Shown here in pieces: positions 24,621 to 64,000 of a stretch of 64,000 nucleotides of DNA. Made by a program: the position numbers and the translations under genes. Position 1 is the stretch's first letter, and each line of letters starts with the position of its first letter. The notes beneath the pieces were generated by a model, which did no database searches, was not told the origin of the DNA, and worked only from the letters and a program-made list of their open reading frames with translations. Source of the DNA: the human T2T-CHM13v2.0 reference genome, Homo sapiens; NCBI RefSeq assembly GCF_009914755.1, contig NC_060926.1; one strand, written 5' to 3'.

Positions 24621-25399
<779 letters not shown>

Positions 25400-26464: not shown

Positions 26465-26835
26465 GTGCAATATAGCTTTTCACAAAATATGGAACTGTGG
26501 TAGTGTAGAACAATGTCTCAATATACCTCCTACACTAAGTATAATAGTAAATATCTGTATTTGGTGGCATAATATGTTCTTAGTATAAACCAAAAACACA
26601 TGCTGAGCATTGGACATTGTCCAATGTTTAATTCATATGATTCATTCTGAGTTTCTGACTGAGATCATTCTTTCAGACTATGTCTATTTGTCCTGGGACC
26701 CATAAAATATGCAGCCCTAACATGATTTCATTTTTGTTTCCTTTCCTGGAAAAGGAGAAATCATTCAGATCAGCTTTCATATTGCCTTATAGACGATGAC
26801 TTCAAAATAGTTTGAAAGGGACTCCTTTGTTCTAG

Positions 26836-27466
<631 letters not shown>

Positions 27467-27799
27467 TTTTCTAAAGAGTCACTGCTAAGCCCTGAATTTA
27501 ACTCCAAATACCTCCCTGGAATACAGTGCCAAGGCAGGGGCTTCCTTGAACTTCAACCTCCAAAAGTAAGCAAGAATTGAGAAATATCTTCTGCTTTGAA
27601 AAATATTCACTCCCCAACCCTAATACATCAATTACATATTATTTGGGGGCTAACTAAGCTCCTGTTTTAAAATGTAAATTGAAGAAATTAGGCCAGAGTC
27701 ACTCCCATCTTAGTGCCAATCATATAATCAGATAATTAGATTGCTCTTTCCCTAAAGCCTGTTTAGTTTTCTTGTTTGCTGGTTTTGTTGTTGTTGGGT

Positions 27800-28300
<501 letters not shown>

Positions 28301-28949
28301 GCTCGCTAAGGCCTTTTGCCAAGACAAATTAGCTCTTAGAGAACCACAGGATTCCTCTTGTAATGTATTACAAACTAAAGTCTTACCTGCTCTTGAAGAG
28401 TAGAAAACATGAAAAAGTTCTGTGTTAGCCCTTAGAATAATTAAAAATTCATAAGCTCTGAAATAAATACAGGTAATAAAGGTAATAAAATTATTGCCTA
28501 TGACAAAACAAAAGTTTAAATTGGCGTTTGTAAACTCTGCACGAAAGCCAGGTTTCTCACTACTAGAAAAAGAAAAAAAGTTATAAATAAGCCAAGAATT
28601 CCAGAATGAATCCTGTGGTGCCAAATATATGTTAACTACAAGGAATAACAGTGACCTTACACTGGAAACACCTTAACCATGGGCCAAGGTTAAAGATATA
28701 ACAGCATTCTCACACCCCTTGCACAGCTACCCCCAATGTTAACATAACTGTTAATAAATTATCAAAACTAAGAAATTAGTCTTGGTATAGTATCACTAAC
28801 TACACTCCAGACCTCAGTCAGGTTTTCCCAGTCTTTCCTTCAGTGTCCTTCCTCTGTTTCAGGATTCAATCCATGATCCTTGACACTTGGTACTTTGTCA
28901 GATGTCCTGCTATATGGGTTTGTTTGATGTTTTCCCATGATTAGGGATA

Positions 28950-32580
<3,631 letters not shown>

Positions 32581-33288: not shown

Positions 33289-33726
<438 letters not shown>

Positions 33727-34403
33727 TTACTGGAAATAAAAGAGAATACAGTTAAAGGACACCATGAGGAAACAATCAGATAAATACAGAAAGTGAGAAC
33801 ATTGACCCAACTTCTATAAGTCAACTGGCTAGGTCTCTCCAATAAGTTCAAAGTCAAGAAAAAAAAGGGGGGGCCAGGTACTACACTTGATTTTTAAAAA
33901 GCTTAGAGACAAACAATGAAATGCAACCTATGCTCCTTAATTAGAACCCTATTTAAACAAACCAGCTCTCAAAGACATTTTTTGGGGTCAAAAAGGGAAA
34001 GGTGAATATAGTCTGGTTATTAGAGAACATTTAGAAAGCACTGTTACTTGTATTAGGTGTGAAAATTGTGTGATTATATTGTGAAAGAATTCCTTCTTTA
34101 AAAAAGATGCATTCTAAAGTATTTAGGGGTGAAAAGTTTAAAGTAATTTACTTCAAACTACAGTGAAAAAAATTTAAACACTGCAAAATATTAACTGCTA
34201 AATCTAGATGGTGGCTTTATAATATTCATAGATGAACATATTTCCTTTAAATTTCTATGTGCTTAAAATTTTTCATGTTAAGTAATATATGTATTACATT
34301 GGGATACATATAACTATGATTGACAGAAAATAACACTAAAAGTGCAAGATCACTGATTCTGTCTAGGAAGTAGGATTATAGGGACTTCAATTTTCAAGTT
34401 AGC

Positions 34404-34687
34404 TTTTTTTTTTTGAGACGGAGTCTTGCTCTATCGCCCAGGCTAGAGTGCACTGGCGCAATCTCAGCTCCCTGCAAGCTTCGCCTCCCGGGTTCACACC
34501 ATTCTCCTGCCTCAGCTGGGACTACAGGCACCACCACCATACCCAGCTAATTTTTTTTGTATTTTTAGTAGACACAGGGCTTCACCGTGTTAGCCAGGAT
34601 GGTCTCGATCTCCTGACCTCAGGTGATCTGCCCACCCTGGCCTCCCAAAGTGCTGGGATTACAAGCGTGAGCCACTGTGCCCAGCCA
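34404..34687 (-). mobile_element. Alu
   Basis: Antisense Alu with short internal deletion. Confidence 0.85.
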
Positions 34688-35559
34688 GAAAAGAATATTT
34701 TTTAAAAAAGAAAATCCATAATCGTAGTAACATTTTCTAGATGGAAAAAACAAGAAAGAAAAATAGAAAATTAGGTACAGAAGGTAAGTTCCATTCAGCT
34801 GTGCTCAATTTTGGTAACATATTAAACATGGTCAAACGCTTCCTCATATTCCATGTCCCCCTTCCCACCACATACCATGGCAGTTTTTTCAGATGAATAA
34901 AAACAAAAGCTATGGACATGAATGCATTACCGAATGTCAAACTTGCGATGACCTGGCTCAAGCAGCAGAGGGTGCTCAAGATATTTCTGGATCACGTGCA
35001 CTGGGCCCTGGTTGTCTATGAAATGGAGAAGCTCTGAAGCCTCTGAGGAGATGAGAATGCCTTCACCTAACAGGGAAAAAGCAAAAGAGAAACCAATCCA
35101 ATTCAAACCAAGAGCTCTCTATAAAGCCAGAAAGGAAATACGAACAGCAAAAACCCCACAAGAGGCTTTCAATGTCCTGCTCACCTTTTTCCCTCCCTTC
35201 CTTACTCCAGTCCCCCACATGCTCCCTTCTCCCCTCAAGAGCACCCAGGATTATCCTACCAACTCTTTCTCCATACAGGTGTCAACGCTATCTTGGCTGG
35301 CTACAACCATGAAACGTCAGTTTTACAGAAATTCGTAGTGCCTAAGCACTCAAAATAAATACCATTCTAGTACTAGTCACTGGCTACCACAATAAAGACT
35401 ATAACAACAATAAATCCCCTTCCTTCACTATATCTTATAGAACTACCAGGAAGATAAAGGCATAAAGATGAATGTTCAAGTACGTCCCTTGCAGCATTGC
35501 AATAGAAAAAACTGGATACATTGGAATTGTCCATTAACATTAAATAATTGATATATCCT

Positions 35560-38660
<3,101 letters not shown>

Positions 38661-39268
38661 TGAGTTGTCACCACTTCTTATTTTAACCATTTTAATAAAA
38701 GTGTAGTGACAGCTCGCTGTGGTTTCAGTTTGCTAGAATCTTCTGATCTATGCTTTAGATTTATAGCTGATTTCTACCTGGATCTCATGCTTTCTTTATA
38801 AATGAATTCAATTCAGTTCATTAATTCAATGATCCACCTTTCCCAAACGTTAACGCCCTTTTCAACTATCTTCTTCCTGTCACTTGTTCGACCATCTGGT
38901 GAGCTTCTTGAACAAGAAACTGCAAATCAACCTGGAAAAGCTCCCTTCTTCTCTTTCCCTACACACATGACTCATGCTGTTTCATCTCCCTTAGGAATCA
39001 GACTCAGATTTTTTGATACAACAGTATCAAAAATTATAAAATAAATTTGAATTTTATGTATCGTTTTATACCTATAAAATAAGAAAACAAAAATGGTGAT
39101 ACTTTTAGTAGAAGTTCGTCATGAACTGCTCCCTGTTAGCTCACGGCCCTTTGAAAAAGCAAGAGGATAACACAGAGCAAGAGCCATAAAGGCTTCATAT
39201 CATTTGACCAAGTAATCTCATGTTTCAAACTTACTCTAATGAAATTTTTAAGAAGAAACAAGAGTCAA

Positions 39269-39903
<635 letters not shown>

Positions 39904-40698
39904 GACACATATATATATATAAAATAAAAAATTAAAATTAAAAAAGAAACAAGGGTGATCTACAGCAAAGACATTTACTACTGTTATCTGTAATAGCGGA
40001 ACAATGGGGTTGTTTCTAAACAATAATTTTCTGTTATAGATGTAGTGTGTTCCCACGCTCCAGGTGAGAGGTGAAGGTGGCTAGATTAGAGATAGGCAGT
40101 GGACATGGTAAACAGTGGCTTCATAATGGGTAGAGTTTGAAGGTTGAGCCAACTATACAAAGCATGTAGTGGGTACCAAATAAATACTTGTTTAACAAGA
40201 ATAAAAGCCATTCATTCATCCTATTGATTTCATTTTATGGTTTCCAAACATAATAAATATATATCAAATATATATCTCTTCAACTCCTAAAGCAAAAAGT
40301 CTTTAGCATTTTATTCTCTCTTGACTTCCCCCTGCTGCTTGGTGTCCCTCTGAGTCTTGTCTTGGTGAGGGTCCAGGGATCACCAGGTGTCCTCACAGTG
40401 GCCATTCTGACTCCAATCCCAAACCCACCGGAGAAGGGATGTCTATTTCCTCTTCCAAATCCGTCATTTACCATTGGAACCACACTAGGGGGCAGTAGTT
40501 GAGAAAAGGTCACAAGAGGGGAGAGAGAAGTAGGTGAGATACCTGACTTGTGGCAAGAGTCCAACTCTCCCCCTTTCAGGGATACCAGTTGAGGCCTTCC
40601 TGTCTCATGGCTGGTGGAAAAGAAGGTGAGGTCCCTTCGACCCAGAACAGAAATGAGTACCAATGGCCAGATGTCTCCCAAGGCAATACAAGAAGTGA

Positions 40699-42578
<1,880 letters not shown>

Positions 42579-43306
42579 TGAGTAGAATTTTGAAAAAATA
42601 TGTTTAATAATGGTGGCAGCTGATATTTCAGCTTGAAACTGATGGATAAAATTGGCTCTGTGTTTTACTGTTTAGTATAAAGCTTTCTCTTGATGACGAA
42701 TCATATTTAATCATTTTACTTGGAAACTTTGAAAAAAGATCAGAAACAAGCTTTTTAGTATTTATTGATTTAATCGTATTATCCTAGTTTAAATTGTTGA
42801 TTTAATATATTGTGATAGTTGAATTTTTTAAAAAAATAGTCTTAACTTTTTGGACAGTTTTGTCCTTACAGAAAAATTAAGAAATTCGTACAAAGAGCAC
42901 CTATATGCCCTGTACTCAATTGTCTCCTATAACCAACATCTTACACGAGTATGGTGTATTTGCAACAATTACTCAACTAATATTGATTTGTTATTATTAG
43001 CTAGTGTGAATATTTTATCCAGATCTCCTTAGTTTTTGCCTAATATTATTTTCTGTTCGAGGATGTCATCCAGGACATCACATTACATTTAGTTGTCATC
43101 TGTCCTTACGCTCCGCTTGGCTGTGACAGTTTCTAAGACTTTTCTTGTTTCTGATGACCTTGACAGTTTTGGGGATACTGGTGAGATTTATTCCTGTTGA
43201 TGCTGACCTTGATCACCTGGCTGAGACGGTGTCCATTACGTTTCTCCACAGAAAAGTCCCTCTTTCTTTCCCTTTCCTTACTGTACTCTTTGGAAGGAAG
43301 TCCTTA

Positions 43307-43924
43307 TGTCAGAGGTGTTTGAACTGGAGTGACTCCATTTTGAGTGAGGGCTAGGAAAATGTGTCTGAGGCTTCCTGGGCTGCATTCCCAGAAAGTGAGG
43401 AATTCCTAGCCCCTAGATGTTTATGGTTAAGGGAACAGATTAATAATGTTTACTAAACAGATGCAGACTCGGGAGTGTCCAGATATCCCGATATCTGGAG
43501 AACAAGGGCATTCCTAATTTTGCTTTAAACATATCGATTCTTGCAAAATACAGTAATTAGGAAAATTAATGCTTTATCACAAACCCCTGTAGCAGAGCAC
43601 ATCTCCCCAAGATTTTTTTATCATATATATACATATGTGTGTATATATATACACATATGTATGTATTTATCTCATATATACACATATGTATGTATTTATC
43701 GTGTGTGTGTGTGTGTATACCAACATTGTATCTACGGTGGAAGCGTTCCTCCTTTTGCTTTCAGGAACGCCCTGCTCTGTCTATGGAGTAGCTGTGCTTT
43801 CACTACTTTACTTTCTTTAATAAACTTGCTTTTGCTTTGCACTGCAGATTCATCCTGAATTCTTTCTTGTGCAAGATTCAAGAATCCTCTCTTAGGGTGT
43901 GGATCGGGATCCCGATCCCTTTCC
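43307..43924 (+). mobile_element. ERV1 solo LTR of the MER41/LTR15-related group, inserted in an old antisense L1MC (~42830-44300)
   Basis: tgtcagaggtgtttgaactggagtgactccattttg...ctgggctgcattcccagaaag...ctatggagtagc...aataaacttgctt...ggatcgggatccc; TA/TG microsatellite inside. Confidence 0.8.
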
Positions 43925-45139
43925 AGCCCACACTTAAGGATTGGAGAGTTATGCTCTCCACTGTTTGAGGGTGAAATATCGACATCAATCATTTAGAATT
44001 CTTCTGCATGGGAGGTTTGTCTCCCCTATTTATTTATTTTCTCAATCATTGTTCATAGATACTTATTTCATACTTTGGATTAGAATCCAGTGTTACTTTA
44101 TGGTGTTGCTCCAATCATGCCTCCTTTGGCCACTGGAAGTTCTTTCACTTGCTCCTGTGTGCCTTTGACAAACCTCCCTCAAAGTGGGTTTGGTTTTGTT
44201 TGGGAGCACTTCTTTATTTCCTGTCATTTCAAGAGATTCTGTGCTTACCTTCTCTATTCCTGCTACAGTCCTTGAATCAGCCATTTGTCCAAGGAATCCT
44301 GGTCAGTTGAGTTTGTAATGTTGAAGCACCCTCTCATTCCTCAAACCCTGATTAGTTAAGGAGTACTATTCTTTTTCCGTATCATTGGATTTCATATTCT
44401 AATAATTTGATTATAATTTTTGTGTCTGTATCCCTTTATAAAAATGGTATATACTCTAATTTTTTGATATGTCTTACTAGTTTTAAAAATTAAAGCAATG
44501 TTAGCCTTATAAGATAAACAATGAAGCTTTGCACTTTTTCCAAGTACTGAAATTGTTTAGGCATTGTAAGAATTGTTCCTTCTTTAAAGGCCAGAAAGAA
44601 TTCAGGGATTAAAATCTTCTGGATCTATGACCTTTTAAAATATAGGCCTTTATTATTTCAGTCTCTCTATAGCTAATAATTCATTCAGGCTTTGTGTTTC
44701 TTCTGGGTAACTTTTGTTTATATTTTGACAAGAAATGTTTTTATTTCCCCTTCATTCCTGAAGTATAGTTCACTGGGTATAGAATTAGGATGAACAGTTC
44801 TTTTATTTTAGCCCTTGAAAATGTTAGCTATTTTCTTATTGTCCCACAAGTTCCTGGATCTCTGTTCATTTCTTTTTCAGCTATTTTCTTTTTGTCGTTC
44901 AGTTTGAGAAACTTGTAATAATCTATCTTCAAATTAATTGACTTTCCTCTGTCATCTCCATTCTGCTATTGAGCCCATTCAATGAATTTATTTTAATTAT
45001 ATTTTCAGTTCTAAAATTTCAAATTTTTTCCTTCTGTGTCTTTTTTTTCTTGAATTGTAATTTTTAAAATTTAAGTGTGTTCAATTACTTGTTGAAGTAT
45101 GTTCATGACATGTGCTTCAAAATCCTTGTCAGGGCTTTG

Positions 45140-49537
<4,398 letters not shown>

Positions 49538-49820
49538 CTATTTCATATAGTTTGTGAGTCCATTCACCATTGTTTGAACCTCTGAATCTATCTCATTGTG
49601 CCTTTGTCCCATTTTTTAATGTTTCTGCTAAGCCACAACCTATCCCATACTTGTGAGGTCCTAAAAATATCTCTCCCAACTTATCCCTTTGATATTTTGC
49701 AGATTTCTTTCTCATCATAGAAGTAAAATTAGATGAACATCAAGTCAAAGAGAAGTAGGTTTACATGTCAGTCAGTGTGAGTTAAACTATGTTGTAACTT
49801 CTGTTCACAGACTAAGAGAG

Positions 49821-50026
49821 ATGGAGTCTTTCCTCTTGGATGACATCAGCTCTGTGATACAGAACAAAGGCATTGAGAGAATCATCTCACCAATGATCGT
49901 TCAGCTTTGCCATCTGCTCATCTCAATGGAGAGGAAAGAAGTGGAGAATGAAGTATTTGCCTCATTGGAGAAGATGGCTGAGGAATTGGCGAAAGCTTGT
50001 GAAGACTTCGTGCAAGTTGTCAAAAG
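49821..50026 (+). CDS. Vinculin/alpha-catenin head-like coding exon (MESFLLDDISSVIQNKGIERIISPMIVQLCHLLI...VQVVK); first coding exon of a putative long LIMS3 isoform or remnant of a vinculin-family gene
   Basis: Acceptor cttctgttcacag at 49809-49810, ATG in strong context (gagATGG), donor AG|gtaatt at 50027. Ungapped similarity to vinculin residues ~4-60. Confidence 0.75.
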
Positions 50027-50569
50027 GTAATTCTTTCAAAGAACACAATAAATTTTCACCCTGACAAATTTGCAGAAGAAGGAAAGTGTAACTAGAGACT
50101 TATTATAATCTTTTTAAGTGCTTTTGGAAAGAAGTCAGATGAGAAAAAAAATAATAAAACACAAAGACACAAAGCAAATTTATTTAATAGGTTGTTATTT
50201 ATGACTTGGGGTATAATTTAAGTATGCAAACATTTGAGAATTAGTTGACTGAGTTTTCCACTGAGAACAAGTTCTACATGCCATCAGAGGGTTTCTAGAT
50301 TATTATTTCATTTCACAGATGAATTATTTTCTATTATAGGGATAAGAATTTTCAGAGTAGTCTAAACACAATTTTCATGTCTGTCTTTTAGTGCATTTGA
50401 GCCTGATTCTTTGTTAGTAAACCTACATGCAAATTATTTTCATAATAAGTTTCAATTCCAGGGTTAATACAAAGTAGCCTAGTTATAACAACAAAACCGA
50501 ACTCTATTAATAAAAACTGAATACCACTACAAAAATGTTACTTTTTTCTTTTTCGCCCCAAACTTCATG

Positions 50570-51800
50570 TAGGTGTTGGAGCAAACTGCCTATGTTTGAA
50601 TCTTAGCAACACCATCAATTTAGTGCAATCCTATAAAAATTCCACAAGCTTTCTTTTTTAAATGGAGCTTGAAAAGTTGATACCAAAGTCCATATGAAAA
50701 AAATTAAACATAAGAACAACTAGAAGAACCCTGGAATAAAAAGCTGTGGAGAGAGAATAGCTTGTCAGGTATTAAAAACACTTCTAGATCCTCTTTTAGG
50801 AAAGTGTATGATACTGTCATATGAAGAGACAGATTGACCACTGGAACAGAATAAAAAGCCCAGAAACACACAACTACACATGGATCTGTACACCACAAAG
50901 AGTGGACTTTAGTGCACGCAAATTTGAAAAATGAACCAGGCTGGCCGGGCGGGTGGCTCATGCCTGTAAACTCAGCATTTTGGGAGGCGGAGGCAGGTGG
51001 ATCGCCTGAGGTCGGGAGTTCAAGACCAGCCTGGCCAGCATGGTGAAACCCCATCTCTACTAAAAATACAAAAATTAGCTGGGCGTGGTGGCGGGCACCT
51101 GTAGTCCCAGCTACTCTGGAGGCTGAGGCAGGAGAATCACTTGAACCCAGGAGGCGGAGGTTGCAAGTGAGCCAAGATAGTGCCATTGCACTCCAGCCTG
51201 GTGACAGAGCAAGACTCCATCTCAAAAAAAAAAAAAAGGAATAGGCTGTTAGGAAGTCCTGTGGAGAAAGCAGGCTATAACAAATGAATCTAACAATATT
51301 ACAAACGCATGATACAGCCTCACTGAAAGAGTTGCATGGAGAAGGAGCTGACCTAAGCAATTTTGGAAGACAGCCTTTTGACTGGATACTGTAAAACTAA
51401 AGAAAATTGTATATTAACACAGTATTCTAGGTAGTAAATTTGTTTCTCAGTAATTTTGAAACTACAAGTATAATAAATAGATAGATATGTTGTAGATAAT
51501 GAAAGTTGGGGTCTCACTCTCAGAGAAAAAAGTTACAAATAAGCAAGGGGGGAAGTTAGAATGAGCCTTGTGGAGTAGAGTGGGAGGTATCAGTATGAAT
51601 GTGTGCGTGTCTATGTATACACATGTATAATACACTAATCTGTGTTTAGCTGTATTTTTTCACTCTGTCTTCTGAGAAGCCCTAGAAGCAGTGACACCCC
51701 AGTATTTCTGGAGAAACGCCTGAGAAATTCTAGGTCTGGAGCCAGGAATACACAAAATAAGGCTGGAACATCTTGTAGCACCAGAAGGAAAAGAAAGGAT
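50570..51800 (+). mobile_element. Old L1M fragments with Alu 50943-51238
   Basis: caatttagtgcaatccta...cagattgaccactggaacagaata (ORF2 C-terminal) and an L1MD-like 3' region. Confidence 0.6.
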
Positions 51801-51820
51801 GGAGGCGTGTAAGAAGGACA

Positions 51821-52090
51821 TGTGGTGGGCTGAATAATGGCCCCCAAATATGTCCAGATCCTACTCCCCAAAACCTGTGAATATGTTACTTACATGGCAA
51901 AGGGACTTTGCAAATATGGTTAAGAACCTTTAGATGGGAGATGATCCTGGATGATCTGGGGGCCCGAGGGAGTCACAGTCGTCCTTATAAGAGGGATGCA
52001 GGAGGATCAGAAAGAGGAGAAAGGAATGTGAGGATGGAAACAGAGGTCAGAGTAATGTGCTTTGAAGATGGAAGAACAGGCCACAAGAAG
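51821..52090 (+). mobile_element. MLT1D-like MaLR LTR fragment
   Basis: tgtggtgggctgaataatggcccccaaa...acctgtgaatatgttac...gctttgaagatggaag. Confidence 0.75.
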
Positions 52091-52742
52091 TTGCACCTAT
52101 AATAAAATGTCAAATAAGATCTAGAGGCTTCAGGAGAACCTGAGGTTATCTGTGGAGGGTGGAAGGCTTATGCTGAAGTGGTCCCCTGAGAGCAAAGATC
52201 AGGAGTAAGGGACGATCCCCTAGTACTCACTTGCAGAAGTGACTTAAAGCTGCTAAAAGGATGTGTGTCAGGGCTTTGGCATTCTGCCGCAGACATAGAA
52301 AGACCTGATACTGTTTTGACTTCCTGTGTCCCTGTAGGCATTCAGCGGCCAACATTTGTATAGTACTTTATCTTTCTCAGCTTATTTCTAATTAGCGATA
52401 ATTAATACTCTTAGTATTAATACGAGTTAATTTGTAATTCTTACAAAAGAGTGTGAGATAAAATGAGCATGTGCTGTCTTTAATTTCCAAAGGAGGAAAT
52501 GAAAGGGTCCATGGAAGATGAGCTGTAGCTGTGGAAGGAGCAGAAAAGCCAGAGGGTGGCTCAGGAGTCTGGTGTTATATATGATGACAACATTTTAAAA
52601 ATAAGAGGTGAGGAAAATGGGAGCACACTTTTTGGAAGATTAACATAAATGTAAAATGATTTACAGAACAGATCAATGGAATTCAGTTAGGTCTCAGATT
52701 TTACTTTCCCCATTAGGGATGTATGTAAAGAAAGGGCATGTT

Positions 52743-53446
52743 GGCCGGGCATGGCACACGCCTGTAATCCTAGCACTTTGGGAGGCCAAGATGGGCAGAT
52801 CACCTGAGGTCAGGAGTTTGAGACCAGCCTGATCAACATGGAGAAACCTCATCTCAACTAAAAATACAAAATTAGCCAGGCGTGGTGGTGCATGCCTGTA
52901 ATCCCAGCTACTCAGGAGGCTGAAGCAGGAGAATCACTTGAACCTGGGAGGCAGAGGTTGCTGTGAACCGAGATCACGCCATTGCACAGCCTGGACAACA
53001 AGAGCAAAACTCCATCTCAAAAAAAAAAAACTAAACTAAACTAAAAAGGAGGGGGACATGTTGAGGCAATAGGAACTTGAAGTACTTGGGATGGTTCATT
53101 AATTTCCCTACGAAACGTCTTTGGTTCATTAATTTCCCTACGAAACATCTTTTTTTTTTTTTTTTTTTTTTAGACAGAGTCTTGCTCTGTTGCTGGGGTG
53201 CAGTGGCATGATCTTGGTTCACTGCAACTTCCGCCTCCTGGGTTCAAATGATTCTCCTGCCTCAGCCTCCCGAGAAGCTGGGATTACAGGTGCGCACCAC
53301 CACACCCAGCTGATTTTTGTATTTTTAGTAGAAGTGGAGTTTCTCCTTGTTGGCCAGGCTGATCTCGAACTCCTGACCTCAGGTGATCTGCCTGCCTCAG
53401 CCTCCAAAAGTGCTGAGATTACAGATGTGAGCCACTGTGCTTGGTC
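52743..53446. mobile_element. Inverted (tail-to-tail) Alu pair: 52743-53030(+) and 53150-53446(-)
   Basis: Alu consensus in opposite orientations ~120 bp apart. Confidence 0.88.
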
Positions 53447-53916
53447 AAAACATCTTAATTTGACCTTTTTTTTTAATTCACAGACCACTTTGAGACTCAA
53501 CACTTACGACATTCATAGAAGAAAATGCACAAAGGCACATGCATAGAAAGTTTTTGTATAACTTCCAGGAATTCATGCCCCCAGTCCAGCCACAGCAACA
53601 CGTGATTGTAATGATGATTGCATTTCTGAAGACTTTTTAAAAGCATTTTTTTGGATAGAAGAGTTAAAATGTTGTGAATTCTTGATAAATTGAATAAGCA
53701 ACAAATACACTAGCAGTCACTAGAGGGTGATGTTTTCTAGCATACAACATCAAGTTCTTTCCGGCAGGTTGTCATTGTAAGTTCCTGTGTATGTGCTTGC
53801 TTGTGTGTGTGTCTGTGTGAAAGAGACAGAGGCACACACACAGACTGTCTCTACCTGCATAACTAAAAGAATTTCTTTGTGCATGTTTCTTTTTTCTCCT
53901 TTTCACTTATCTATAA

Positions 53917-54232
<316 letters not shown>

Positions 54233-54926
54233 AGAAATGCTATTTTTTTAAAGCCTTCTCCCACCTGTTCTACAGATGAATTCTGAATGTTTTCTAATAT
54301 ATCCTTGTTTCTCATCATCCTAGGAATAGCTACCAATTATGAGCACCCACTGTGGTTGGCTGTGCACTGGGTGGCTTATGAACTTTACCCCTCATCCCTA
54401 CAACTGCAGCGTGGGCTATTTCATAGATTAGGACATGATGTGTAAGTAGCTGGCTCAAAGCCCTCCATCTAGTAAGTTTGCCAGTATATCATCAGTTCAT
54501 AGTAAACTAAAAAAATGTCTACTTTATCCAAACTTTTTTGTTTATAAATGAATTTTTGTCACCTGGTATGTCTTAGATATGATTTGAGACTTTTTGTTGT
54601 TGTTGGCATAGCTTTAATAAAATTAACATAAACTTTGACTTTGTATAGGCTAGGAGGAAGGAGAGACTGAGGAGTACTATGTTTGGAAGGAAAGTTGAAG
54701 GTAGGGCAGCCGGATGGTTAGCTTTGCAGATACCAGGCCAGTGAGAAGAAAACAGCTAGTTCAATATTTTGCTTAGGATTGAGCCCTGATGGTTGGATAC
54801 TAGCCATCTGGGGGGTGGTGGGTGGGGAATCCTTTTGGGAGAACGGACGGAGTGTGGGAATGAGGCCCTGGCCAGGCAGATGTGTGCCAATCTGACACTG
54901 TTCATTTCTTCTGTTGTTTATGCCAG

Positions 54927-55017
54927 TTCAGGCAACACGGAAGCTGTGTCTGTTTCTCCTGTCATTGTAAATGCAGCCCTGGTCTTTCAAAAAGCTGTGG
55001 TTGTGTGGGTCTTTAAG
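54927..55017 (+). CDS. Putative internal exon of long LIMS3 isoform (SSGNTEAVSVSPVIVNAALVFQKAVVVWVFK)
   Basis: ttcatttcttctgttgtttatgccag| ... TTT AAG|gtattc; 91 nt, phase 2 to 0, no stop. Confidence 0.6.
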
Positions 55018-55204
55018 GTATTCCTTCAGTAATTGTGGTGGCCACTATTTCATTTAAGGAGTTAGCATCTTATAAAGAAAAATCTGTTTTCTCAAGGCTC
55101 TATAGTAATGATATTTTGTTTAAGTTTGTCCAATATGGTATTTAGTTCTTCCTATTAAGGAGGAGTCTCTAAACTTCAGTCTGTGGGCCAAATCTACCTC
55201 CTGT

Positions 55205-57130
<1,926 letters not shown>

Positions 57131-57306
57131 TTGTTCTTCTCTTCTGTTCTCTTTTTTCTTCACTTTTCTTTCACAGAATCTTACTCTGTCACCCAGGCTG
57201 CTCTGATGCAGTCTCTGCTCACTGCAACCTCTGCCTCCCAGGTTCAAGCGATTCTCCTGCCTCAAGCCTCCTGAATAGCTGGGATTACAGGCACCCGCCA
57301 CCATGC

Positions 57307-57882
57307 TGTTCTGTGCGGGAGATGCCTAAGGGGGGAAGAAAAACACACACACAATACCTTTAAGGGTAAACAAGCTTTATCCCACGTAAAAGGCAATGCA
57401 GATATAATAAACAAATGATACAATAAACAAATTGCAATGAAAAGGGGAGAAGGGAAAAGATATATATATATATTTTTTTACACTCACCAAACTATGGAGG
57501 ATTCATCACCAGACCGGGAAGCAACAGCCTGTGCTCCAGAGTCAGCCACTGGTCCATGCACAGCGAGGGAAGGTCTCATGAAGTTTCGGTGCAGTCTGGG
57601 ACTCTAGCTGTTTTCGTAACAAGTTGTTTGGCATGAGACCCAGTCACAAGTGCCTTCGTGACTGGGCTTAAGGAACACAAAAAGGTCACAACTTGTTTTT
57701 GCGATTGTCTATTGTTTTTCAATAACTGACATGTAAGAATAGATTGAAATAGAGATTTCTCTGAAACAGCGCTGGATGAATGCCTCAAGGGGCTCACTCA
57801 ACCTGTTTCAGGACTTGGTGACCATTGTTTGTGTCCATGTTCAATTGAGTTCAAATTTAATATTTAACTTTTCCTCCACACA
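57307..57882 (-). mobile_element. ERV solo LTR (subfamily uncertain) nested inside an antisense Alu (~57160-58036)
   Basis: TG...CA ends; 5-bp TSD catgc/cacgc splitting the Alu at ccaccatgc|ccggctaat. Confidence 0.8.
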
Positions 57883-58165
57883 CACGCCCGGCTAATGTTT
57901 TGTGTTTTTAGTAGAGACAGGGTTTCATCATGTTGGCCAGGCTCCTGGCCAAATCTCAAACTCCTGACCTCAGGTGATCCACCCGCCTCGGCCTCCCAAA
58001 GTGCAGGGATTACAGGCGTGAGCCACTGCACCTGACCACCACCTAAACTTTCCATGGCCACACTGTTACAGATCCTTATTCACGACATACAAACAACCTT
58101 CTTCACTCAGCACTGGGCACCAAACTATGTACTGTATAGTCATAGAAGCAGAGGCTATGACTTTT

Positions 58166-58194
58166 ATTCATTCATTCATTCATTCATTCATTCA
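58166..58194. repeat. (TTCA)n microsatellite
   Basis: attcattcattc... ~7 units. Confidence 0.9.
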
Positions 58195-58949
58195 GCAGAT
58201 TGTAGTATCTTCTACTGATGGTGGGCGGGATACTTCTTAGGCACCACATTGGGCCTATTGCATCATGGGCTCATAGTAAAAGTTCCATATGTCCAGGAAT
58301 GATGTAAAGCCAACAATGGAATAATGCGAGCAACTATTTTTCTAGAAGAAGTAGACTTTACCAGAATGCCAAAATGGGCTGCTAAAGGAAGGGCAGCCCA
58401 TCAGTGCTGTCACCAGCTCCTGAAACCCCGGGGCCTGTTTACTCCCACCATTGCAGTGGAGGACATGTCTGAGCCTCCTGCTTGGCTTTAACCCCCACAT
58501 TAGTTCCTTTGTTGTTTCAGTGTAAGTAGCTTGGGTAATGTGCAGAGAATTTCTTTGCCTTGTATTATTATGAGAATCAACTGGTTGGGTCATCAGTTCC
58601 TAGGGAGAGGCTAATGGGAAGGTGATCTATAGAGTGTGATAGAAGACAATCTAGCTTTCTTGCTGCATCTTTTCTTCCTTCAGAACGTCAGCTTCTCTTT
58701 TCCCTCCCAACTCCCAGCAGGATATTCCTGATTGAAAGAAAGGCCAAGAGGAGAGAATGAGATCTAGCAAAATTGTAAACAAAGGAACAGAGCCACAAAC
58801 CTGTTTTACATTCATATAAAATGTTACATTGATTGATTAAACAGTTTAAAAATATCTTCATAGTATATGGTACCTTTGATCATAAAACCAGGTCATGTTA
58901 AGGTGACCTCTATTGAAGAGTTCTATTTAGGGTTACTGTGTGCCAACCA

Positions 58950-59453
58950 CCCTCATTAAAATAGTCACAGATGTAAGTAGAGGAAACCAGATAAAAGGAA
59001 AGATCTCTATCTGCTTCCCCGTAGTAATCCTTACATAGCATAACTTGAGTTAAGAACAGCCAGATGGAAGAGATAATGGGGCAAGGTGTGGGGAAACAGA
59101 GCAGAGCTTCTCTCCTCTGGGAGCGCCACCCTCCCAGCACCTCCATATGTTCAGCAACCCAGAAGTTCCCCTAAACTGTCCTATTGAGTTTTTATGGAGG
59201 CTTCTTTTCATAGGCATGATTGATTTGATCATTGACCACAACTCCTCTCCCTTCCAAGGGGTTGGGGCTGGAGCTGAAAGTTGCAGCCTTCTTATTGCAT
59301 GGTTGATTCTCCAGCAGCCACCCCCACACCTGTCACATTAGCCTACAAAAGACACTTACCACTTCAGAGAGTCCAAGAGTTTTAGGAGTCCTGTGCCAGG
59401 AAATGGGGGCGGAGACCAAGAATAGATTTATTATTAAAAGTCACAATATGACA
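58950..59453 (-). mobile_element. MER21-like LTR fragment
   Basis: aacagccagatggaagag...caccctcccagcacctccatatgttcagcaacccagaag...ggagtcctgtgccaggaa. Confidence 0.65.
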
Positions 59454-60045
59454 GGCAGTTTCTTTAAAACCTAAGCATTCACTTACCATACAACTCAGCA
59501 ATTTTACTGTTGGGCATTTATCCCAGAGAAATAAAAATATATTCAATACAGAAATTTCTATAGTTTCATTCACAGTGCCACAAATTGGAAGGAAAGTACT
59601 TAAATGCCCTTCAGCGGGTGAACAGTGAAACAAACTATGCATCCATGTCATGGAATACTACATGGCAGTAAACAAGAGCAAACTGTGGACATGTGGAGCA
59701 ACTTGGATTGGTCTCAGGGCATTGTGCCTTAAGATGTCACATGAACGATTCCATTTGGTAACATTCTTTAAATAATAGAATCATATAAATGAAAAACACA
59801 TGAGTGGTTGCCAGAGGTTAGGAGTGTTGGAGTGTGCAGAGGTATGTGATGGTCAGAGATAACATGAAAGAGAAGTCTGTGGTGATGGAATAGTCCTGTA
59901 ACTTGATAGAGGCTGTTGTTACAGGAAGCTGCCCATGTGATGAAATGACAGAGACCCGCACACATGCATTGCTGCAATGTCAGATTCCTGGTTTTGCTCC
60001 TGTACTGTAGTCACGTAAGATGTGAGCACTGGGGAGACTGTGAGG
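59454..60045 (+). mobile_element. L1M 3' fragment
   Basis: ggcagtttct...gggcatttatcccagagaaataaaaa...gagtggttgccagaggtta. Confidence 0.7.
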
Positions 60046-60919
60046 GAGAATTCTGAGCAGAAGGCTCACGTGGCTTCCTGCCTCCTACCATGCCACCCCC
60101 ACCGGATGCATTAAATTTCTGGTCTGAGTCAGCCTGCCTCTGTCCTCATCCATCTGTCTGTCTGTCTCTTTCTTTCCCTCCCTCCCTGCCTCCTCACTGT
60201 TTCACATGGTCATTGTAAAAAAGAAACCTAAAAAATTAGGAAATGTAGATAAATTGAAAGGAAAAATTTTAAACCATGAGGTTGTTCCTTTCTTATTTAA
60301 ATATGGTGGTTCCCTTGTTTCATCAGCCATAGGCTTTGGGCCTGGGCAGGATCTGTAGCCCACAGCCTTTGAGTTCTTGACCTATCCTCTGAGATTTTTA
60401 GGATTCAAAGTAGAAAGACTTGGTCCCCTGCTTCCAGTCCTATCTGGTACCCACTCCCTCATCTTTTCTGGCTAACCATTGTGCTTCCCAGTAATTATGT
60501 TTAACATTTTCTCACATAGGGATTAACAACATAGGCTCTGGACTCAGAGTGCCTAGGTTTAAATCTTGACTCCACCACCTCCTTAGTAGTTATTCAGTCT
60601 CTTTGTGCCTCAGTTTCTTCATTTGTAACTAACACCTATCTCAGAAGCCGTGGGAAGGATTAAGGGATGTGATAGGAAGCACTCACTGACTCTTGGATAT
60701 CATTATTTATGGTTGTTACTTGGTGTCTCTGGCTGCATTTTGTTTGTCGCTGCTGGTTCCGTGACTGTCCATCAGTGTGCCTTGCGCCTGTTCTGTAGAT
60801 TTTATTTCACAGTCTCTTGGTTTTGGTGGGTGGCACACTGCCCTGAGAGGACGGGGACGTGAGAAAGATTCTGAGCTCTTTAGTTGTCTCTAGTGCTACA
60901 TCATGATTGTCATCATTGC

Positions 60920-61505
60920 TGTAAACCAAAAAGTATATGAGACAAGTCTTACTCAATTTAGAACATGTATTTTGCCAAAGTTAATGACGCACCCATGACA
61001 CAGCCTCAGGAGGTCCTGACAACATGCGCCCCGGGGTGGTCGGGGTACAGCTTGCTTTTATACATTTCAGGGAGACATGAGACATCAATCAATATATGTA
61101 AGATGTACATTGGTTCAGTCCAGTAAGGTGGAACAATTCGAAGTAGGGGGTTTCCAGGCCAGAAGTAGATAAGAGACAAAAAGTTGCATTCTTTTGAGTC
61201 CTTGATCAGCCTTCCGATGAATACACAATTGTGTCTGGCTCAGTGAACCTACATTTTTACGTGAACAATAGGGCAGAGGAAGCAATCAGTTATGCATTTG
61301 TCTCAGGTGAGCCTCAAAGGGATGACTTTGAGTTGTGTCTGTCCTTTTTCCATAAGGAGTTTTCTTGCGGGCAAATGGTGAGGGAGGGATGTAGGTTGTT
61401 ATCTTTGTAGCTATCTTATTTAGCAATAAAACAGGAGGCAAGTTTGCCTGACGTAGTTTCCAGCTTGACTTTTTCCTTGGCTTAGTGATTTAGTTTCCTT
61501 TCGCA
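60920..61505 (-). mobile_element. MER4-family ERV1 solo LTR ~460 bp upstream of the 61966 exon
   Basis: tgtaaaccaaaaagtat...gacacagcctcaggaggtcctgacaacatg...cagcttgactttttccttggcttagtgat; 4-bp TSD ttgc. Confidence 0.85.
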
Positions 61506-61965
61506 TTGCTAACTCAATCACAGGAGACAGGAGTGTGGACTGAATATAGCAAGAATGCCAAAGTATGTAACAGTTTCCTTAGTCATGATAGAGACTGAGA
61601 AACATCGGCTCACCTAAGCTTTGAGGTTAGCTGGAGTCCAGTAGAAGAGTTATAACTAAACACTGGCCCTTGTCTGTTTCCACTTGTGCCCATTCATTGA
61701 AGCTGAGATTGGACTGAGTACATTTGTGACTATGTACCAGTAGCAAAGGTGATAGAAGTCAAACGTAGCTCTTAGTTTTAGGGGCTCATGGCCTCCTGGG
61801 GAAGGGACCCATCAGGCATAGCTGGCAGTCATGGCCAGGGTTGTGGAAGCCCAGGTCCAGGCAGGGTTCAAATGCTCCTCAGAGTGTGCCAGCAGCCTCA
61901 GCCTCAGGGAGAGCTTGTCAGGGGGATGTTTTACAAGGTCTCCAAAAGCCTCTTATGCCCTCTAG

Positions 61966-62051
61966 AGTGAAAAGCACGGCATTGTTGATGAAGTCTTGTG
62001 GCAAATATGCAAGGCACGTGTGGATATTTCTTTCTCTTGGAGGCTTACAAG
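61966..62051 (+). CDS. Putative internal exon of long LIMS3 isoform (SEKHGIVDEVLWQICKARVDISFSWRLT)
   Basis: ctcttatgccctctag|AGT GAA ... ACA AG|gtagcc; 86 nt, phase 0 to 2, no stop. Confidence 0.58.
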
Positions 62052-62248
62052 GTAGCCCCGGTCTCCTGGTGCAGTGTTTATAGCATAGTCCACTGGGACT
62101 GCCGCTCTGACAAAGACTGTGTCACTACTTTGTGGAATGTTATTTTAGAACTTCCAGAATGCCTCAGTAAATCCTGACTGCCATGTAACTGTGTACTGTG
62201 CTGCTGAGCTCTTAACATGAAGCAGCAGCAGTGACCCTGGCGGGCCAG

Positions 62249-62372
62249 GCTGACGTGCGTGGGAACAGTGGGAGTGACCCTGGCTGGGAAGCAGGGAGGC
62301 CTGGATATTGTTTCTCCTGGCTCTGTGTCCTGCCATTCTCATCCCTGTGCTCAGAGCTCTCAAGCACCCACG
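62249..62372 (+). CDS. In-frame 5' extension of LIMS3 exon (RLTCVGTVGVTLAGKQGG...QAPT) used only in the putative long isoform
   Basis: ggccag|G CTG ACG TGC GTG... stays open into the ATG at 62373; the acceptor is pyrimidine-poor. Confidence 0.5.
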
Positions 62373-62554
62373 ATGGCCTTCTCAGGCCGAGCGCGCCCCT
62401 GCATTATCCCAGAGAACGAAGAAATCCCCCGAGCAGCCCTTAACACTGTCCACGAGGCCAATGGGACCGAGGACGAGAGGGCTGTTTCCAAACTGCAGCG
62501 CAGGCACAGTGACGTGAAAGTCTACAAGGAGTTCTGTGACTTTTATGCGAAATT
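62373..62554 (+). CDS. LIMS3: LIMS3/LIMS4 (PINCH-3) first coding exon, derived from an alternative first exon of LIMS1
   Basis: MAFSGRARPCIIPENEEIPRAALNTVHEANGTEDERAVSKLQRRHSDVKVYKEFCDFYAK, then TT|gtgagt donor (phase 2). Kozak acgATGG. The LIM exon lies beyond the window. Confidence 0.9.
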
Positions 62555-63599
62555 GTGAGTGTCTCCTCTCCTGGAGTGCCCTCTTCCAGGTCCAGCGTTC
62601 TTGGCTGTCTGTTCAGGAGCCATCCTGAGCTGGCCCATACAATTTTATTGACTGGACTTTGGGTGGGAGTTTTCCAGGGTGGTAGGGCTTCGAGGGGCTC
62701 GCAGCGCAGCATGTTTAGGGAGACAGGAGACTGCCTTGTCGGTAAGACATGCAGCGACACGCAGATGGGAGGGAGGTGCTGCCCTCACTGTGAGAGCATG
62801 GCGGCCCCGTCTTCAGTAGGTTCCTGATCACTTGGTAACTAACTGCATTTTCATCATGTCGTCCGCAAGGGAGGCTTAGTGTTGTCATTGTCAGTAATTA
62901 CGTTAGAAAAATTCTGCAGTCTAAAACGGCCCAAAGATAAGGGGCAGATGGGTTGGGACAGTGAAAAAAACAAATTACAGACTGTTGGTAAAGATAAATA
63001 TTTTTGTTTTGTGTAATAATCAACAATTTGAAGTAAGCTAACTGGGTTTCTTAATTGAATGAATAAATATATATATCGTATAAGTAGCAGCTCAATACAC
63101 ATATAGAACATACTGTTAACTCTAAAAAGCTAGGCTAATTTATATTATTAAATAGGTTTTAGCAAACACATTTTTTTAAGAAAATGCAGAGTAGCCATCA
63201 GACCAGCTCAAGATTATTGACCTCATTCAAAGTTGTGAGCTTAGAATTACTGCGTATCCCAAATTTGTCAAGTAAGAGTTAATGAGAATTTAACTGACCC
63301 GGTTCTCTACTTCCATAATCCGTGCTCTGTGGTACAGATGTCACTTATCTTCACAACTCACAGAGAGCTCTGTTTGACAGTAACTGGGGAATTGTAATAA
63401 TACAGTAACCAATATTTTGACTGCTTGGTGAACTCTCAAGAAGATTTTTGGATTTATACATTGCTGCATTTTAGGACCAAACAATTTGTTTTGCATACTT
63501 GAATAATGGAAAGCAAGATATCAGTTGTGCTGTGTGAGGTTGATTTGTGGAAGTGGATCAGCTTCATCAGTCATGCCTGGCCTGACTTTTACATATAAA

Positions 63600-63608
63600 T
63601 ATCTATCT

Positions 63609-63647
<39 letters not shown>
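63600..63647. repeat. (TAGA)n tetranucleotide STR preceded by inverted TCTA units
   Basis: tatctatctatagatagatagatag... Confidence 0.92.
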
Positions 63648-64000
63648 CTCCCCCACTTACATATTTCTTGTCATCAACACTTTTTAGTGAAAATCTTTTT
63701 CTAAAAAATTAGCTAATTAATTATAACTAATCTGATGGTAGCTATAACTGTCACTAATGACTTTTTTAAAGTAATTTCTGTCATCTGTAGTATTAAATAT
63801 AAAATCAACATTTAAAAAAAAAAACAACAGGCATTGTGCCAGAGGGTCAAAGGCAAAAGAGGAAAGGGAAGCCTGACTGGTTCAGGGGGCAGCAAGGTGA
63901 TTGTTCTGTTTCCTTTTTCCCCCTGCTTGTGATGAAAAGGAATACTTCTTGCAAAATATATATTATATTACCTCTAAAACTAGCAGATTTTTCCTGTGTG

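What the first reader, a model, noticed from the sequence alone, without database searches (positions are those of the whole stretch)
49821..62554. Four exons splice in frame into a vinculin-head/LIMS3 (PINCH) chimeric protein
Seen: 49821-50026 (phase 2) + 54927-55017 (2 to 0) + 61966-62051 (0 to 2) + 62249-62554 all have AG/GT ends and join without a stop. This adds 169 aa (MESFLL...VVKSSGNTEAV...WVFKSEKHGIV...WRLTRLTCVG...QAPT) before LIMS3 MAFSGR. I recall a long LIMS3 isoform with this N-terminus in protein databases but cannot verify it, and I do not recall its vinculin homology being noted. Established: vinculin and PINCH LIM1 (ILK-binding) both act at focal adhesions. Inference: a second duplication-born chimeric gene next to RGPD, joining half a vinculin head bundle, exonised linker sequence (one exon strongly hydrophobic, VIVNAALVFQKAVVVWVF) and a LIM domain. 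It may equally be a non-functional rare transcript.
Basis: partly seen in the sequence, partly recalled or inferred. Interest (0 to 1): 0.85.

Follow-up and report, generated by a model that had tools for sequence, protein, structure and literature searches.

The report
Orphan VINAC1 exon beside LIMS3
The vinculin-like piece is the leftover first exon of an old vertebrate gene (VINAC1) that humans have otherwise lost, copied next to LIMS3 by segmental duplication, and nothing shows that the proposed four-exon fusion protein is made.

Summary
The four segments exist, have AG/GT ends and join in frame (169 aa before MAFSGR). That alone is chance level. From the exon 1 donor to the LIMS3 ATG there are 2 direct, 3,793 one-exon and 2,438,481 two-exon stop-free in-frame paths.

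It is the first coding exon of VINAC1 (vinculin/alpha-catenin family member 1). It is 99% identical to the N-terminus of a 1446-aa gibbon protein, and orthologs run from eel to mammals.

The human T2T genome holds only this exon, in three copies. No other VINAC1 exon was found.

The stretch upstream of LIMS3 is a duplication mosaic:
- a TTL fragment plus VINAC1 exon 1;
- a LIMS1 5' fragment that holds "exon 2";
- the LIMS1 first-exon region that holds "exon 3" and LIMS3 exon 1.

No annotation or database protein supports exons 2 and 3 or the acceptor at 62249 (hub table).

A simpler untested route exists: the exon 1 donor and the LIMS3 exon 2 acceptor are in phase.

Verdict: pseudogene relic in a duplication mosaic. 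The chimeric protein is unsupported.

The parts
49821..50026 (+). Relic first coding exon of VINAC1 (vinculin/alpha-catenin family member 1). It has the ancestral start codon and natural donor (AAG|gtaatt, phase 2). It is one of three human copies.
   Evidence: translation. (Pfam Vinculin E 0.0037, 16.1 bits, profile 2-55). (vinculin residues 3-57). (99% to gibbon P0001, E 1.1e-31). (19 of 22 orthologs align, 15 of them from their residue 1). (three copies).
50027..52081 (+). Remaining stump of VINAC1 intron 1, about 2.06 kb, ending at the junction with LIMS1-derived sequence.
   Evidence: Homology to chr2:112.8645 Mb runs to window 52499. Homology to LIMS1 upstream starts at 52082.
34404..52499 (.). 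Duplicon block A. It copies the head-to-head TTL / VINAC1 5' region found at chr2:112.8645-112.9285 Mb, where about 45.6 kb more lies between the two halves.
   Evidence: 95-98% identity.
34930..35118 (-). Copied exon of a TTL-family gene, inside an exon of lncRNA LOC102724848.
   Evidence: Pfam TTL 33.3 bits, cut-off 20.1. (three copies: window, 110.9225 Mb, 112.9278 Mb).
52082..58032 (+). Duplicon block B, copied from chr2:109,056,501-109,062,414, about 53 kb upstream of the LIMS1 MAFSGR exon.
   Evidence: (97%).
54927..55017 (+).
   Evidence: (three copies only: window, 110.9025 Mb, LIMS1 upstream). (no Pfam match).
57883..64000 (+). Duplicon block C, copied from the LIMS1 region that starts at chr2:109,111,166. 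It carries LIMS3 exon 1 and runs on beyond the window.
   Evidence: 98%; 99%.
61966..62051 (+).
   Evidence: (no Pfam match).
62249..62331 (+). Proposed 5' extension of LIMS3 exon 1. The frame of MAFSGR is open back to 62235, and the acceptor at 62249 is weak.
   Evidence: open frame 62235-62558. (acceptor top 25%). Hub table (transcript starts at 62332).
62373..62554 (+). Annotated LIMS3 coding exon 1 (MAFSGR... ; phase 2 at its donor).
   Evidence: Hub table.. (joins exon 2 at window-style 66899-67058).

Best explanation
Window 49821-50026 is the orphaned first coding exon of VINAC1. This is an old vertebrate member of the vinculin/alpha-catenin family of about 1400 aa. It is intact in gibbon, monkeys and many other vertebrates.

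In the human genome only this exon and about 2 kb of its intron survive. They were joined to a copied piece of the LIMS1 5' region, and the composite now exists in three copies: this one beside LIMS3, a near-identical twin at 110.9 Mb, and a truncated one about 7 kb upstream of the RGPD copy at 112.8 Mb.

The exon keeps its start codon, open frame and natural donor simply because the break is recent. The four-exon open reading frame to LIMS3 is one of millions of possible in-frame paths and is most likely not a gene product. The relic most likely has no protein function.

Shown: orthology, copy number, absence of the other exons, mosaic structure, the chance count.
Inferred: order of events, lack of function.
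For: Orthology:
- Exon 1 is 99% identical to residues 1-68 of gibbon P0001 (1446 aa; E 1.1e-31), 93-94% to Old World monkeys, 88% to marmoset and 65-82% to 26 further mammal proteins.
- 32 of the 33 hits carry Pfam Vinculin.

Family:
- A search with the P0001 tail gave 84 proteins, all with PF01044. They come from placentals, marsupials, birds, alligator, frogs, bowfin and eel.
- 5 of the 84 are named Vinac1 or 'Vinculin/alpha-catenin family member 1'.
- P0001 scores 197.5 bits on PF01044.
- In the PDB search P0001 matches vinculin at E 3e-27 and alphaE-catenin at E 1.6e-24.

Same start and same exon end:
- 15 of 19 aligned orthologs match from their residue 1.
- The first exon of the chr10 vinculin gene covers profile positions 1-58. 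The window exon matches positions 2-55 and has two more residues, so it ends at about 57.

Rest of the gene absent from the human assembly:
- Whole P0001: only residues 1-70 matched, three times (run with a stricter first look).
- Its last 183 aa: only a weak hit in the CTNNA3 region, E 0.43.
- Lynx N-terminal 284 aa: only residues 1-70.
- Macaque P0002: only residues 1-70.
- tblastn against the window and 11 loci: only residues 1-69.

Mosaic.

Chance level of the four-exon path.

No chimera in annotation or protein databases: hub table.

Relaxed constraint, weak evidence: Ala67 is nearly invariant in 20 orthologs but is Val in all three human copies.

The symbol VINAC1P (ENSG00000283698) exists in two gene lists (passages only).
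Against: - No RNA, ribosome or peptide data could be consulted, so transcription from the retained VINAC1 5' end is not excluded.
- The exon is intact in all three copies and its donor is good (top 2.3% on a rough recalled matrix).
- That donor is in phase with the natural LIMS3 exon 2 acceptor, so an in-frame chimera is physically possible.
- VINAC1P appears in a differential-expression list, so some copy is transcribed in some cells.
- One search used a stricter first look, and the Alu-derived tail of the query swamped. The absence of the other exons therefore rests mainly.
- Names of the paralogous loci (RGPD8, LIMS4, LIMS1, GCC2, TTL, VCL, CTNNA3) are my inference from map order and recall. 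No tool annotated them.
Confidence: 0.82

Rival explanations
1. A transcript starts at or before 49821 and splices 50026>54927, 55017>61966 and 62051>62249. It is translated into a protein of 169 extra residues fused to LIMS3.
For: All sites have AG/GT and the frame is open. All four segments are intact in the 110.9 Mb twin, and segments 2-4 in LIMS1. The exon 2 acceptor is good on the rough matrix (top 3.6%).
Against: - The path is one of 2,438,481 equivalent two-internal-exon paths.
- The acceptor at 62249 is weak (top 25%) and lies upstream of the annotated transcript start. The exon 2 and exon 3 donors are mediocre.
- RefSeq has no exon there (hub table).
- No database protein carries these junctions.
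- Intactness in copies that are 99-100% identical says nothing about selection.
Confidence: 0.04
2. A simpler chimera. The retained VINAC1 promoter and exon 1 are still active in some tissue. For lack of its own exon 2, the natural donor at 50026 splices to the next strong natural acceptor, LIMS3 exon 2 (window-style 66899), skipping LIMS3 exon 1. That would give an in-frame product of about 125 aa: two vinculin-like helices followed by the LIM1 domain and the LIMS3 tail.
For: - The VINAC1 exon 1 and LIMS3 exon 1 donors are both phase 2, so the join to exon 2 is in frame and stop-free through exon 2.
- The exon 2 acceptor ranks top 2.1% of 1,212 AG sites between the two exons on the rough matrix.
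- Upstream promoters usually splice into exon 2 of a downstream gene (general knowledge).
- A 2026 preprint reports 51 fusions born from juxtaposed duplications with long-read support (passages of the main text).
Against: - Phase agreement has a one in three chance.
- No annotated transcript exists (hub table).
- No such protein of 120 aa or more appears among the exon 1 hits.
- The main text of that preprint names neither LIMS nor VINAC, and its supplementary table could not be opened.
- 68 aa cover only about the first 57 vinculin-equivalent residues. By my recollection of the vinculin structure that is half of a four-helix bundle, unlikely to fold or bind talin alone.
Confidence: 0.12
3. 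The vinculin likeness of exon 1 is a chance match of a random open frame.
For: On its own the exon scores only 16.1 bits on Pfam Vinculin, below the 38.1 cut-off. Its E-value against solved vinculin chains is 0.15-0.2.
Against: There are orthologous N-termini at E 1e-31 to 1e-15 in 33 proteins, 32 of them with PF01044. The alignment from residue 1 holds from bowfin to gibbon.
Confidence: 0.01

Closest known systems
VINAC1 / Vinac1 (vinculin/alpha-catenin family member 1), e.g. rat P0076 and gibbon P0001
   Same: Same start codon, the same 68 N-terminal residues (99% to gibbon) and the same exon end.
   Different: The human locus has only exon 1. The remaining roughly 1380 residues, including the tail domain (P0001 1260-1384, which matches the vinculin tail), are absent from the assembly.
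VINAC1P (HGNC symbol, ENSG00000283698)
   Same: Probably the same relic or one of its three copies. The symbol shows that curators already regard human VINAC1 as a pseudogene (gene lists only).
   Different: I could not see its coordinates. The RefSeq table for this window lists nothing at 49821-50026, so this copy may be unannotated.
Vinculin head domain D1 (PDB 1u6h, 1syq and others)
   Same: Exon 1 residues 12-66 align to vinculin residues 3-57. The exon ends where the first exon of the chr10 vinculin gene ends.
   Different: Distant paralog (E 0.15 alone). The exon covers only the first two helices by my recollection of the structure, not the whole four-helix bundle. The structure prediction was not accepted.
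RGPD genes (RANBP2 + GCC2 fusion made by segmental duplication)
   Same: Same neighbourhood and the same process: pieces of different genes set side by side by duplication (passages).
   Different: RGPD has annotated spliced coding transcripts. The VINAC1-LIMS3 pairing has none (hub table).
LIMS3 / PINCH family
   Same: Segment 4 contains the annotated first coding exon of LIMS3. Exon 2 encodes the LIM1 domain, 98% identical to a LIMS1-type protein.
   Different: Segment 4 itself has no Pfam domain. The proposed N-terminal extension is not part of any family member found.

Membership tests
Vinculin/alpha-catenin family (Pfam PF01044) | Score above the curated cut-off on PF01044 | tested here: not met
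   Exon 1 alone scores 16.1 bits against a cut-off of 38.1. Its full-length orthologs score 193-197 bits.
Vinculin/alpha-catenin family (Pfam PF01044) | Complete head bundles plus C-terminal five-helix tail | tested here: not met
   No human match to P0001 beyond residue 70.
VINAC1 ortholog (first coding exon) | N-terminus collinear with and highly similar to VINAC1 of other vertebrates | tested here: met
   99% to gibbon, 94% to Chlorocebus, 50% to rat Vinac1 and 40-41% to eel and bowfin. 19 of 22 chosen orthologs aligned; elephant, horse and Tasmanian devil models gave no hit.
VINAC1 ortholog (first coding exon) | Exon ends at the family's first intron position | tested here: met
   The match to orthologs stops at residues 69-70, at AAG|gtaatt. 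The first exon of the chr10 vinculin gene ends at profile 58, against about 57 here.
VINAC1 ortholog (first coding exon) | Ancestral gene neighbourhood | tested here: inconclusive
   A TTL-family exon lies head-to-head in the same duplicon and at the 112.9 Mb copy. Synteny in other species could not be checked.
Duplication-born fusion gene (as RGPD, NPEPPSP1-TBC1D3) | Juxtaposed duplicons of different origin | tested here: met
   Blocks A, B and C come from 112.86 Mb, 109.056 Mb and 109.111 Mb.
Duplication-born fusion gene (as RGPD, NPEPPSP1-TBC1D3) | Spliced transcript that joins the parts | not testable with these tools
   No RNA data. The RefSeq table shows none. Supplementary Table 5 of PMC13639854 was closed.
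Duplication-born fusion gene (as RGPD, NPEPPSP1-TBC1D3) | Open reading frame across the parts beyond chance | tested here: not met
   2,438,481 equivalent in-frame paths.
PINCH / LIMS (LIM domain proteins) | LIM zinc-finger domain | tested here: inconclusive
   There is none in window segment 4. The LIM1-coding exon lies outside the window at 66899-67058, recognised by 98% identity to P0036, which carries PF00412.

The most novel reading that the evidence does not exclude
The retained VINAC1 promoter and first exon act as an alternative 5' end for LIMS3, and for its twin at 110.9 Mb. The natural phase-2 donor at 50026 would splice in frame to LIMS3 exon 2. That would give an ape- or human-specific protein of about 125 aa, in which the first two helices of a lost vinculin-family protein replace the usual LIMS3 N-terminus in front of the LIM1 domain.
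Probability: 0.08. Interest if true: 0.55.

Novelty: new member of a known kind. Interest (0 to 1): 0.3.

Why it matters
VINAC1 is a sixth, unstudied member of the vinculin/alpha-catenin family. It is conserved from fish to gibbon.

The human assembly keeps only its first exon. The relic sits in the RGPD duplication zone of 2q13. This looks like an old gene destroyed by the same duplications that created new ape genes.

Two practical points follow. Work on Vinac1 in rodents has no human counterpart. An intact-looking ORF with a family match in a duplication mosaic should also not be read as a new gene without transcript evidence. The in-phase pairing with LIMS3 exon 2 gives one cheap, specific thing to look for in long-read RNA data.

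Tried and rejected
- Earlier findings of this scan were not open.
- Pfam gave nothing for segments 2, 3 and 4.
- A Pfam Vinculin scan of the whole genome did not report the chr2 relic. It ran with a stricter first look that drops weak matches, and gave only the chr10, chr2:79-80 Mb, chr5 and chr2:31.7 Mb loci.
- The macaque fragment P0002 was a poor query. Its Alu-derived tail filled the scored candidates. I replaced it with the clean lynx fragment P0015.
- P0034 (343 aa, 100% identity and coverage to segment 4) looked at first like support for an N-terminal extension. It is an unspliced read of genomic DNA with TGA read as W. P0035 is likewise unspliced.
- Literature:
  - 'LIMS3' gave 49 papers, of which I saw the listing of 25, and none was on isoforms.
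  - Six LOC identifiers of orthologs gave 0 papers.
  - 'alpha-catenin family member 1' gave 0 papers.
  - 'Vinac1/VINAC1P' gave gene lists only.
  - 'ENSG00000283698' gave one gene list.
  - PMC12721320 has no LIMS, VINAC, RGPD or 2q13 in its main text.
  - PMC3476715 mentions only a MALL/LIMS3-LOC440895 deletion.
- Structure prediction of exon 1 with its ortholog alignment was not accepted. The 'two helices' statement therefore rests on the sequence alignment to vinculin 3-57 and on recall.
- I considered that exon 2 might be an exonised transposon. I rejected this because its region has only three genomic copies.
Full report
**1. The observation**

The four segments are as described. Each follows an AG and precedes a GT. 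The lengths are 206, 91, 86 and 306 nt. Joined, they read without a stop for 229 aa, of which 169 precede MAFSGR.

The frame of MAFSGR is open back to 62235 only. The proposed acceptor at 62249 therefore sits 14 nt after the last stop. It also sits 83 nt upstream of the annotated LIMS3 transcript start at 62332 (hub table).

**2. Is it more than chance?** No.

- Between the exon 1 donor and the LIMS3 ATG there are 890 AG and 734 GT sites and 13,739 AG..GT segments of 40-300 nt.
- Stop-free in-frame routes number 2 with no internal exon, 3,793 with one and 2,438,481 with two.
- I scored sites with a rough matrix whose frequencies I recalled from memory, so the ranks are only indicative:

| Site | Rank among GT or AG sites in 41000-64000 |
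|---|---|
| Exon 1 donor | top 2.3% |
| Exon 2 acceptor | top 3.6% |
| Exon 2 donor | top 12% |
| Exon 3 acceptor | top 12.8% |
| Exon 3 donor | top 6.8% |
| Acceptor at 62249 | top 25% |
| AG in front of ATG 49821 | top 75% (no acceptor) |

**3. What exon 1 is**

Alone it matches Pfam Vinculin weakly: E 0.0037, 16.1 bits against a cut-off of 38.1, profile positions 2-55. Against solved structures it matches vinculin head chains at E 0.15-0.2, aligned to vinculin residues 3-57.

A search of the large protein collection settled its identity.
- 33 proteins of 120-2000 aa matched, out of 45 candidates, and 32 of them carry PF01044.
- The best is a 1446-aa 'uncharacterized protein' of the gibbon Symphalangus (P0001), 99% identical over all 68 residues at E 1.1e-31.
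- Then come Old World monkeys (93-94%), marmoset (88%), and seals, whales, pig, cats, dog, rabbit and rodents (65-82%).

A second search with the tail of P0001 gave 84 proteins, all with PF01044.
- They include marsupials, birds, alligator, frogs, bowfin and eel.
- 5 of the 84 are named Vinac1 or 'Vinculin/alpha-catenin family member 1' (rat, Phodopus, Cricetulus, Peromyscus, Apodemus).

Further checks on the family and the exon:
- P0001 scores 197.5 bits on PF01044.
- In the PDB search P0001 matches vinculin (E 3e-27; its residues 1260-1384 align to the vinculin tail, 983-1116) and alphaE-catenin (E 1.6e-24; residues 6-636 to 13-651).
- Of 22 orthologs that I picked, 19 align to the human exon. 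15 align from their own residue 1, two from residue 3, and two (marmoset, dog) from further in, in models extended upstream. Elephant, horse and Tasmanian devil models gave no hit.
- The match of the orthologs to human DNA stops at residues 69-70, at AAG|gtaatt.
- The first exon of the chr10 vinculin gene covers profile 1-58, against about 57 here. The gene name for that locus is my recollection.

So ATG 49821 is the ancestral VINAC1 start codon and 50026 is its natural first donor.

**4. The rest of the gene is gone from this human assembly**

| Query | Result |
|---|---|
| Whole P0001 | Only residues 1-70, three times (stricter first look in use) |
| Last 183 aa of P0001 | Only a weak hit in the CTNNA3 region, E 0.43 |
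| Lynx fragment P0015, 284 aa | Only residues 1-70, 8 of 8 candidates scored |
| tblastn of P0001 against the window and 11 fetched loci | Only residues 1-69 |

The symbol VINAC1P (ENSG00000283698) occurs in two papers' gene lists (passages only). The pseudogene status is therefore already recorded by nomenclature. I could not see its coordinates, and the RefSeq table for this window has nothing at 49821-50026.

**5. How the exon came to lie beside LIMS3**

Exon 1 has three copies: the window, 110.9076 Mb (minus strand, one base different in 266) and 112.8670 Mb (minus strand, three bases different). There is none at LIMS1.

The stretch upstream of LIMS3 is a mosaic:
- Window 44000-52499 matches 112,864,520-112,873,038 at 98%.
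- Window 52082-58032 matches 109,056,501-109,062,414 at 97%.
- Window 57883-62000 matches 109,111,166-109,115,291 at 98%. This runs on into the LIMS1 copy of the MAFSGR exon.

Further left, window 34404-41002 matches 112.922-112.9285 Mb. It carries, on the minus strand, an exon that passes the Pfam TTL cut-off (33.3 bits against 20.1). That exon has exactly three copies.

Block A is thus a copy of a head-to-head TTL / VINAC1 5' region. Exon 2 lies in a piece taken from about 56 kb upstream of the LIMS1 MAFSGR exon. Its region has only three copies, so it is not a transposon. Exon 3 lies in the piece that carries LIMS3 exon 1.

The 418 bases at window 52082-52499 match both the 112.8645 Mb copy and LIMS1 upstream. 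The VINAC1-intron / LIMS1-fragment junction is therefore shared by all three copies and arose once.

At 112.86 Mb the LIMS1-derived part breaks off after those 418 bases. It is followed by 3.8 kb that match chr21:41.81 Mb (97%) and then by a copy of the RANBP2 5' end.

The last RGPD exon has copies at 110.3176, 110.936, 112.795, 108.352 and 106.864 Mb, and at 108.968 Mb, the GCC2 parent by my inference.

Passages of the primate-genome preprint say three things: RGPD arose in the ape lineage less than 15 million years ago, monkeys lack it, and RGPD6 is a very recent human copy of RGPD5. This fits monkeys and gibbon keeping a whole VINAC1. It also fits the 99.3-100% identity of the window to its 110.9 Mb twin.

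The order of events and the statement that great apes also lack VINAC1 are inference. The cluster of P0001 holds 3 sequences from 1 contig, and no great-ape protein is listed. Clustering at 90% identity could hide such proteins.

**6. Is a chimera made?**

Against:
- No RefSeq exon lies between 40693 and 62332 (hub table).
- No LIMS3-type protein appears among the exon 1 hits.
- Among 16 hits to segment 4, the two that cover its upstream part closely (P0034, P0035) are unspliced reads of genomic DNA, one with TGA read as W. P0036 and the LIMS proteins start at MAFSGR.
- The intactness of all four segments in the twin, and of segments 2-4 in LIMS1, is expected at 99-100% identity.
- Ala67 is nearly invariant among 20 orthologs but is Val in all human copies. 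This is a small sign of relaxed constraint.

For:
- The exon, its start codon and its donor are intact.
- VINAC1P appears in an expression list.
- The donor at 50026 has the same phase as the LIMS3 exon 1 donor. A direct splice to LIMS3 exon 2 (window-style 66899-67058) is in frame and stop-free through exon 2. That acceptor ranks top 2.1% of 1,212 AG sites on the rough matrix.

The direct route needs no invented exon and is the one to look for, but phase agreement alone has a one in three chance.

**7. Mechanism and verdict**

Most likely (0.82) the exon is an inert relic of a gene broken by segmental duplication. The four-exon protein is a chance path (0.04). A low-level transcript from the old promoter into LIMS3 exon 2 is possible (0.12).

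If translated, the product would carry only the part equivalent to vinculin residues 3-57. By my recollection of the vinculin structure that is two of the four helices of the first head bundle, so folding or talin binding is unlikely. The fold could not be tested because structure prediction was not accepted.

**8. Novelty**

The kind of feature is known: a pseudogene fragment in a duplication mosaic. The pseudogene has a symbol. No paper that I could find describes VINAC1, its loss in humans, or its copies beside LIMS3 and its twin. The supplements of PMC13639854, which list 51 duplication-born fusions, could not be read and may bear on the chimera question.

Noticed in passing
window 34930-35118 (-), within lncRNA LOC102724848 exon 34931-35066: The lncRNA exon is a copied coding exon of a TTL-family gene (Pfam TTL 33.3 bits). 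It has three genomic copies: window, 110.9225 Mb and 112.9278 Mb. The lncRNA therefore looks like the transcript of a partial TTL duplicate.
   Followed up: partly
L010 (chr2:112,857,000-112,866,999) and L003: The third VINAC1 exon 1 copy lies about 7 kb upstream of, and on the same strand as, a copy of the RANBP2 5' end, presumably the start of RGPD8. A 3.8 kb piece 97% identical to chr21:41,812,301-41,816,065 separates them. Whether exon 1 splices into that RGPD copy was not examined.
   Followed up: partly
window 40722-41002 versus chr2:112,876,568-112,922,208: The window copy of the TTL/VINAC1 5' block lacks about 45.6 kb that separate the two halves at 112.9 Mb. The breakpoint lies next to the first exon of LOC102724848 (40543-40693).
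   Followed up: no
window 33439-34411 and 34404: The left end of the homology to 112.9285 Mb (34404) abuts the RefSeq meiotic recombination / NAHR region (33439-34411). The hotspot therefore sits at a duplicon boundary.
   Followed up: no
window 25249-30424: This stretch is 96% identical to two places at chr2:87.01 and 87.77 Mb, presumably the RGPD1/RGPD2 loci. It is a further separate duplicon between the RGPD5 3' end and the TTL fragment.
   Followed up: no
window 61782-62900 (protein P0034): A public protein cluster (343 aa, 44 member sequences, 461 contigs) is an unspliced translation of this human genomic stretch with TGA read as W. This is human DNA called as a gene with a non-standard code, an artefact in protein collections.
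   Followed up: partly
window 50019-50021 (codon 67): Ala67 is nearly invariant in 20 VINAC1 orthologs but is Val in all three human copies. The 112.867 Mb copy also differs at codon 66.
   Followed up: partly
window 61963: Position -3 of the proposed exon 3 acceptor is T in the window and C in both LIMS1 and the 110.9 Mb twin. It is one of the few differences between the twins.
   Followed up: no
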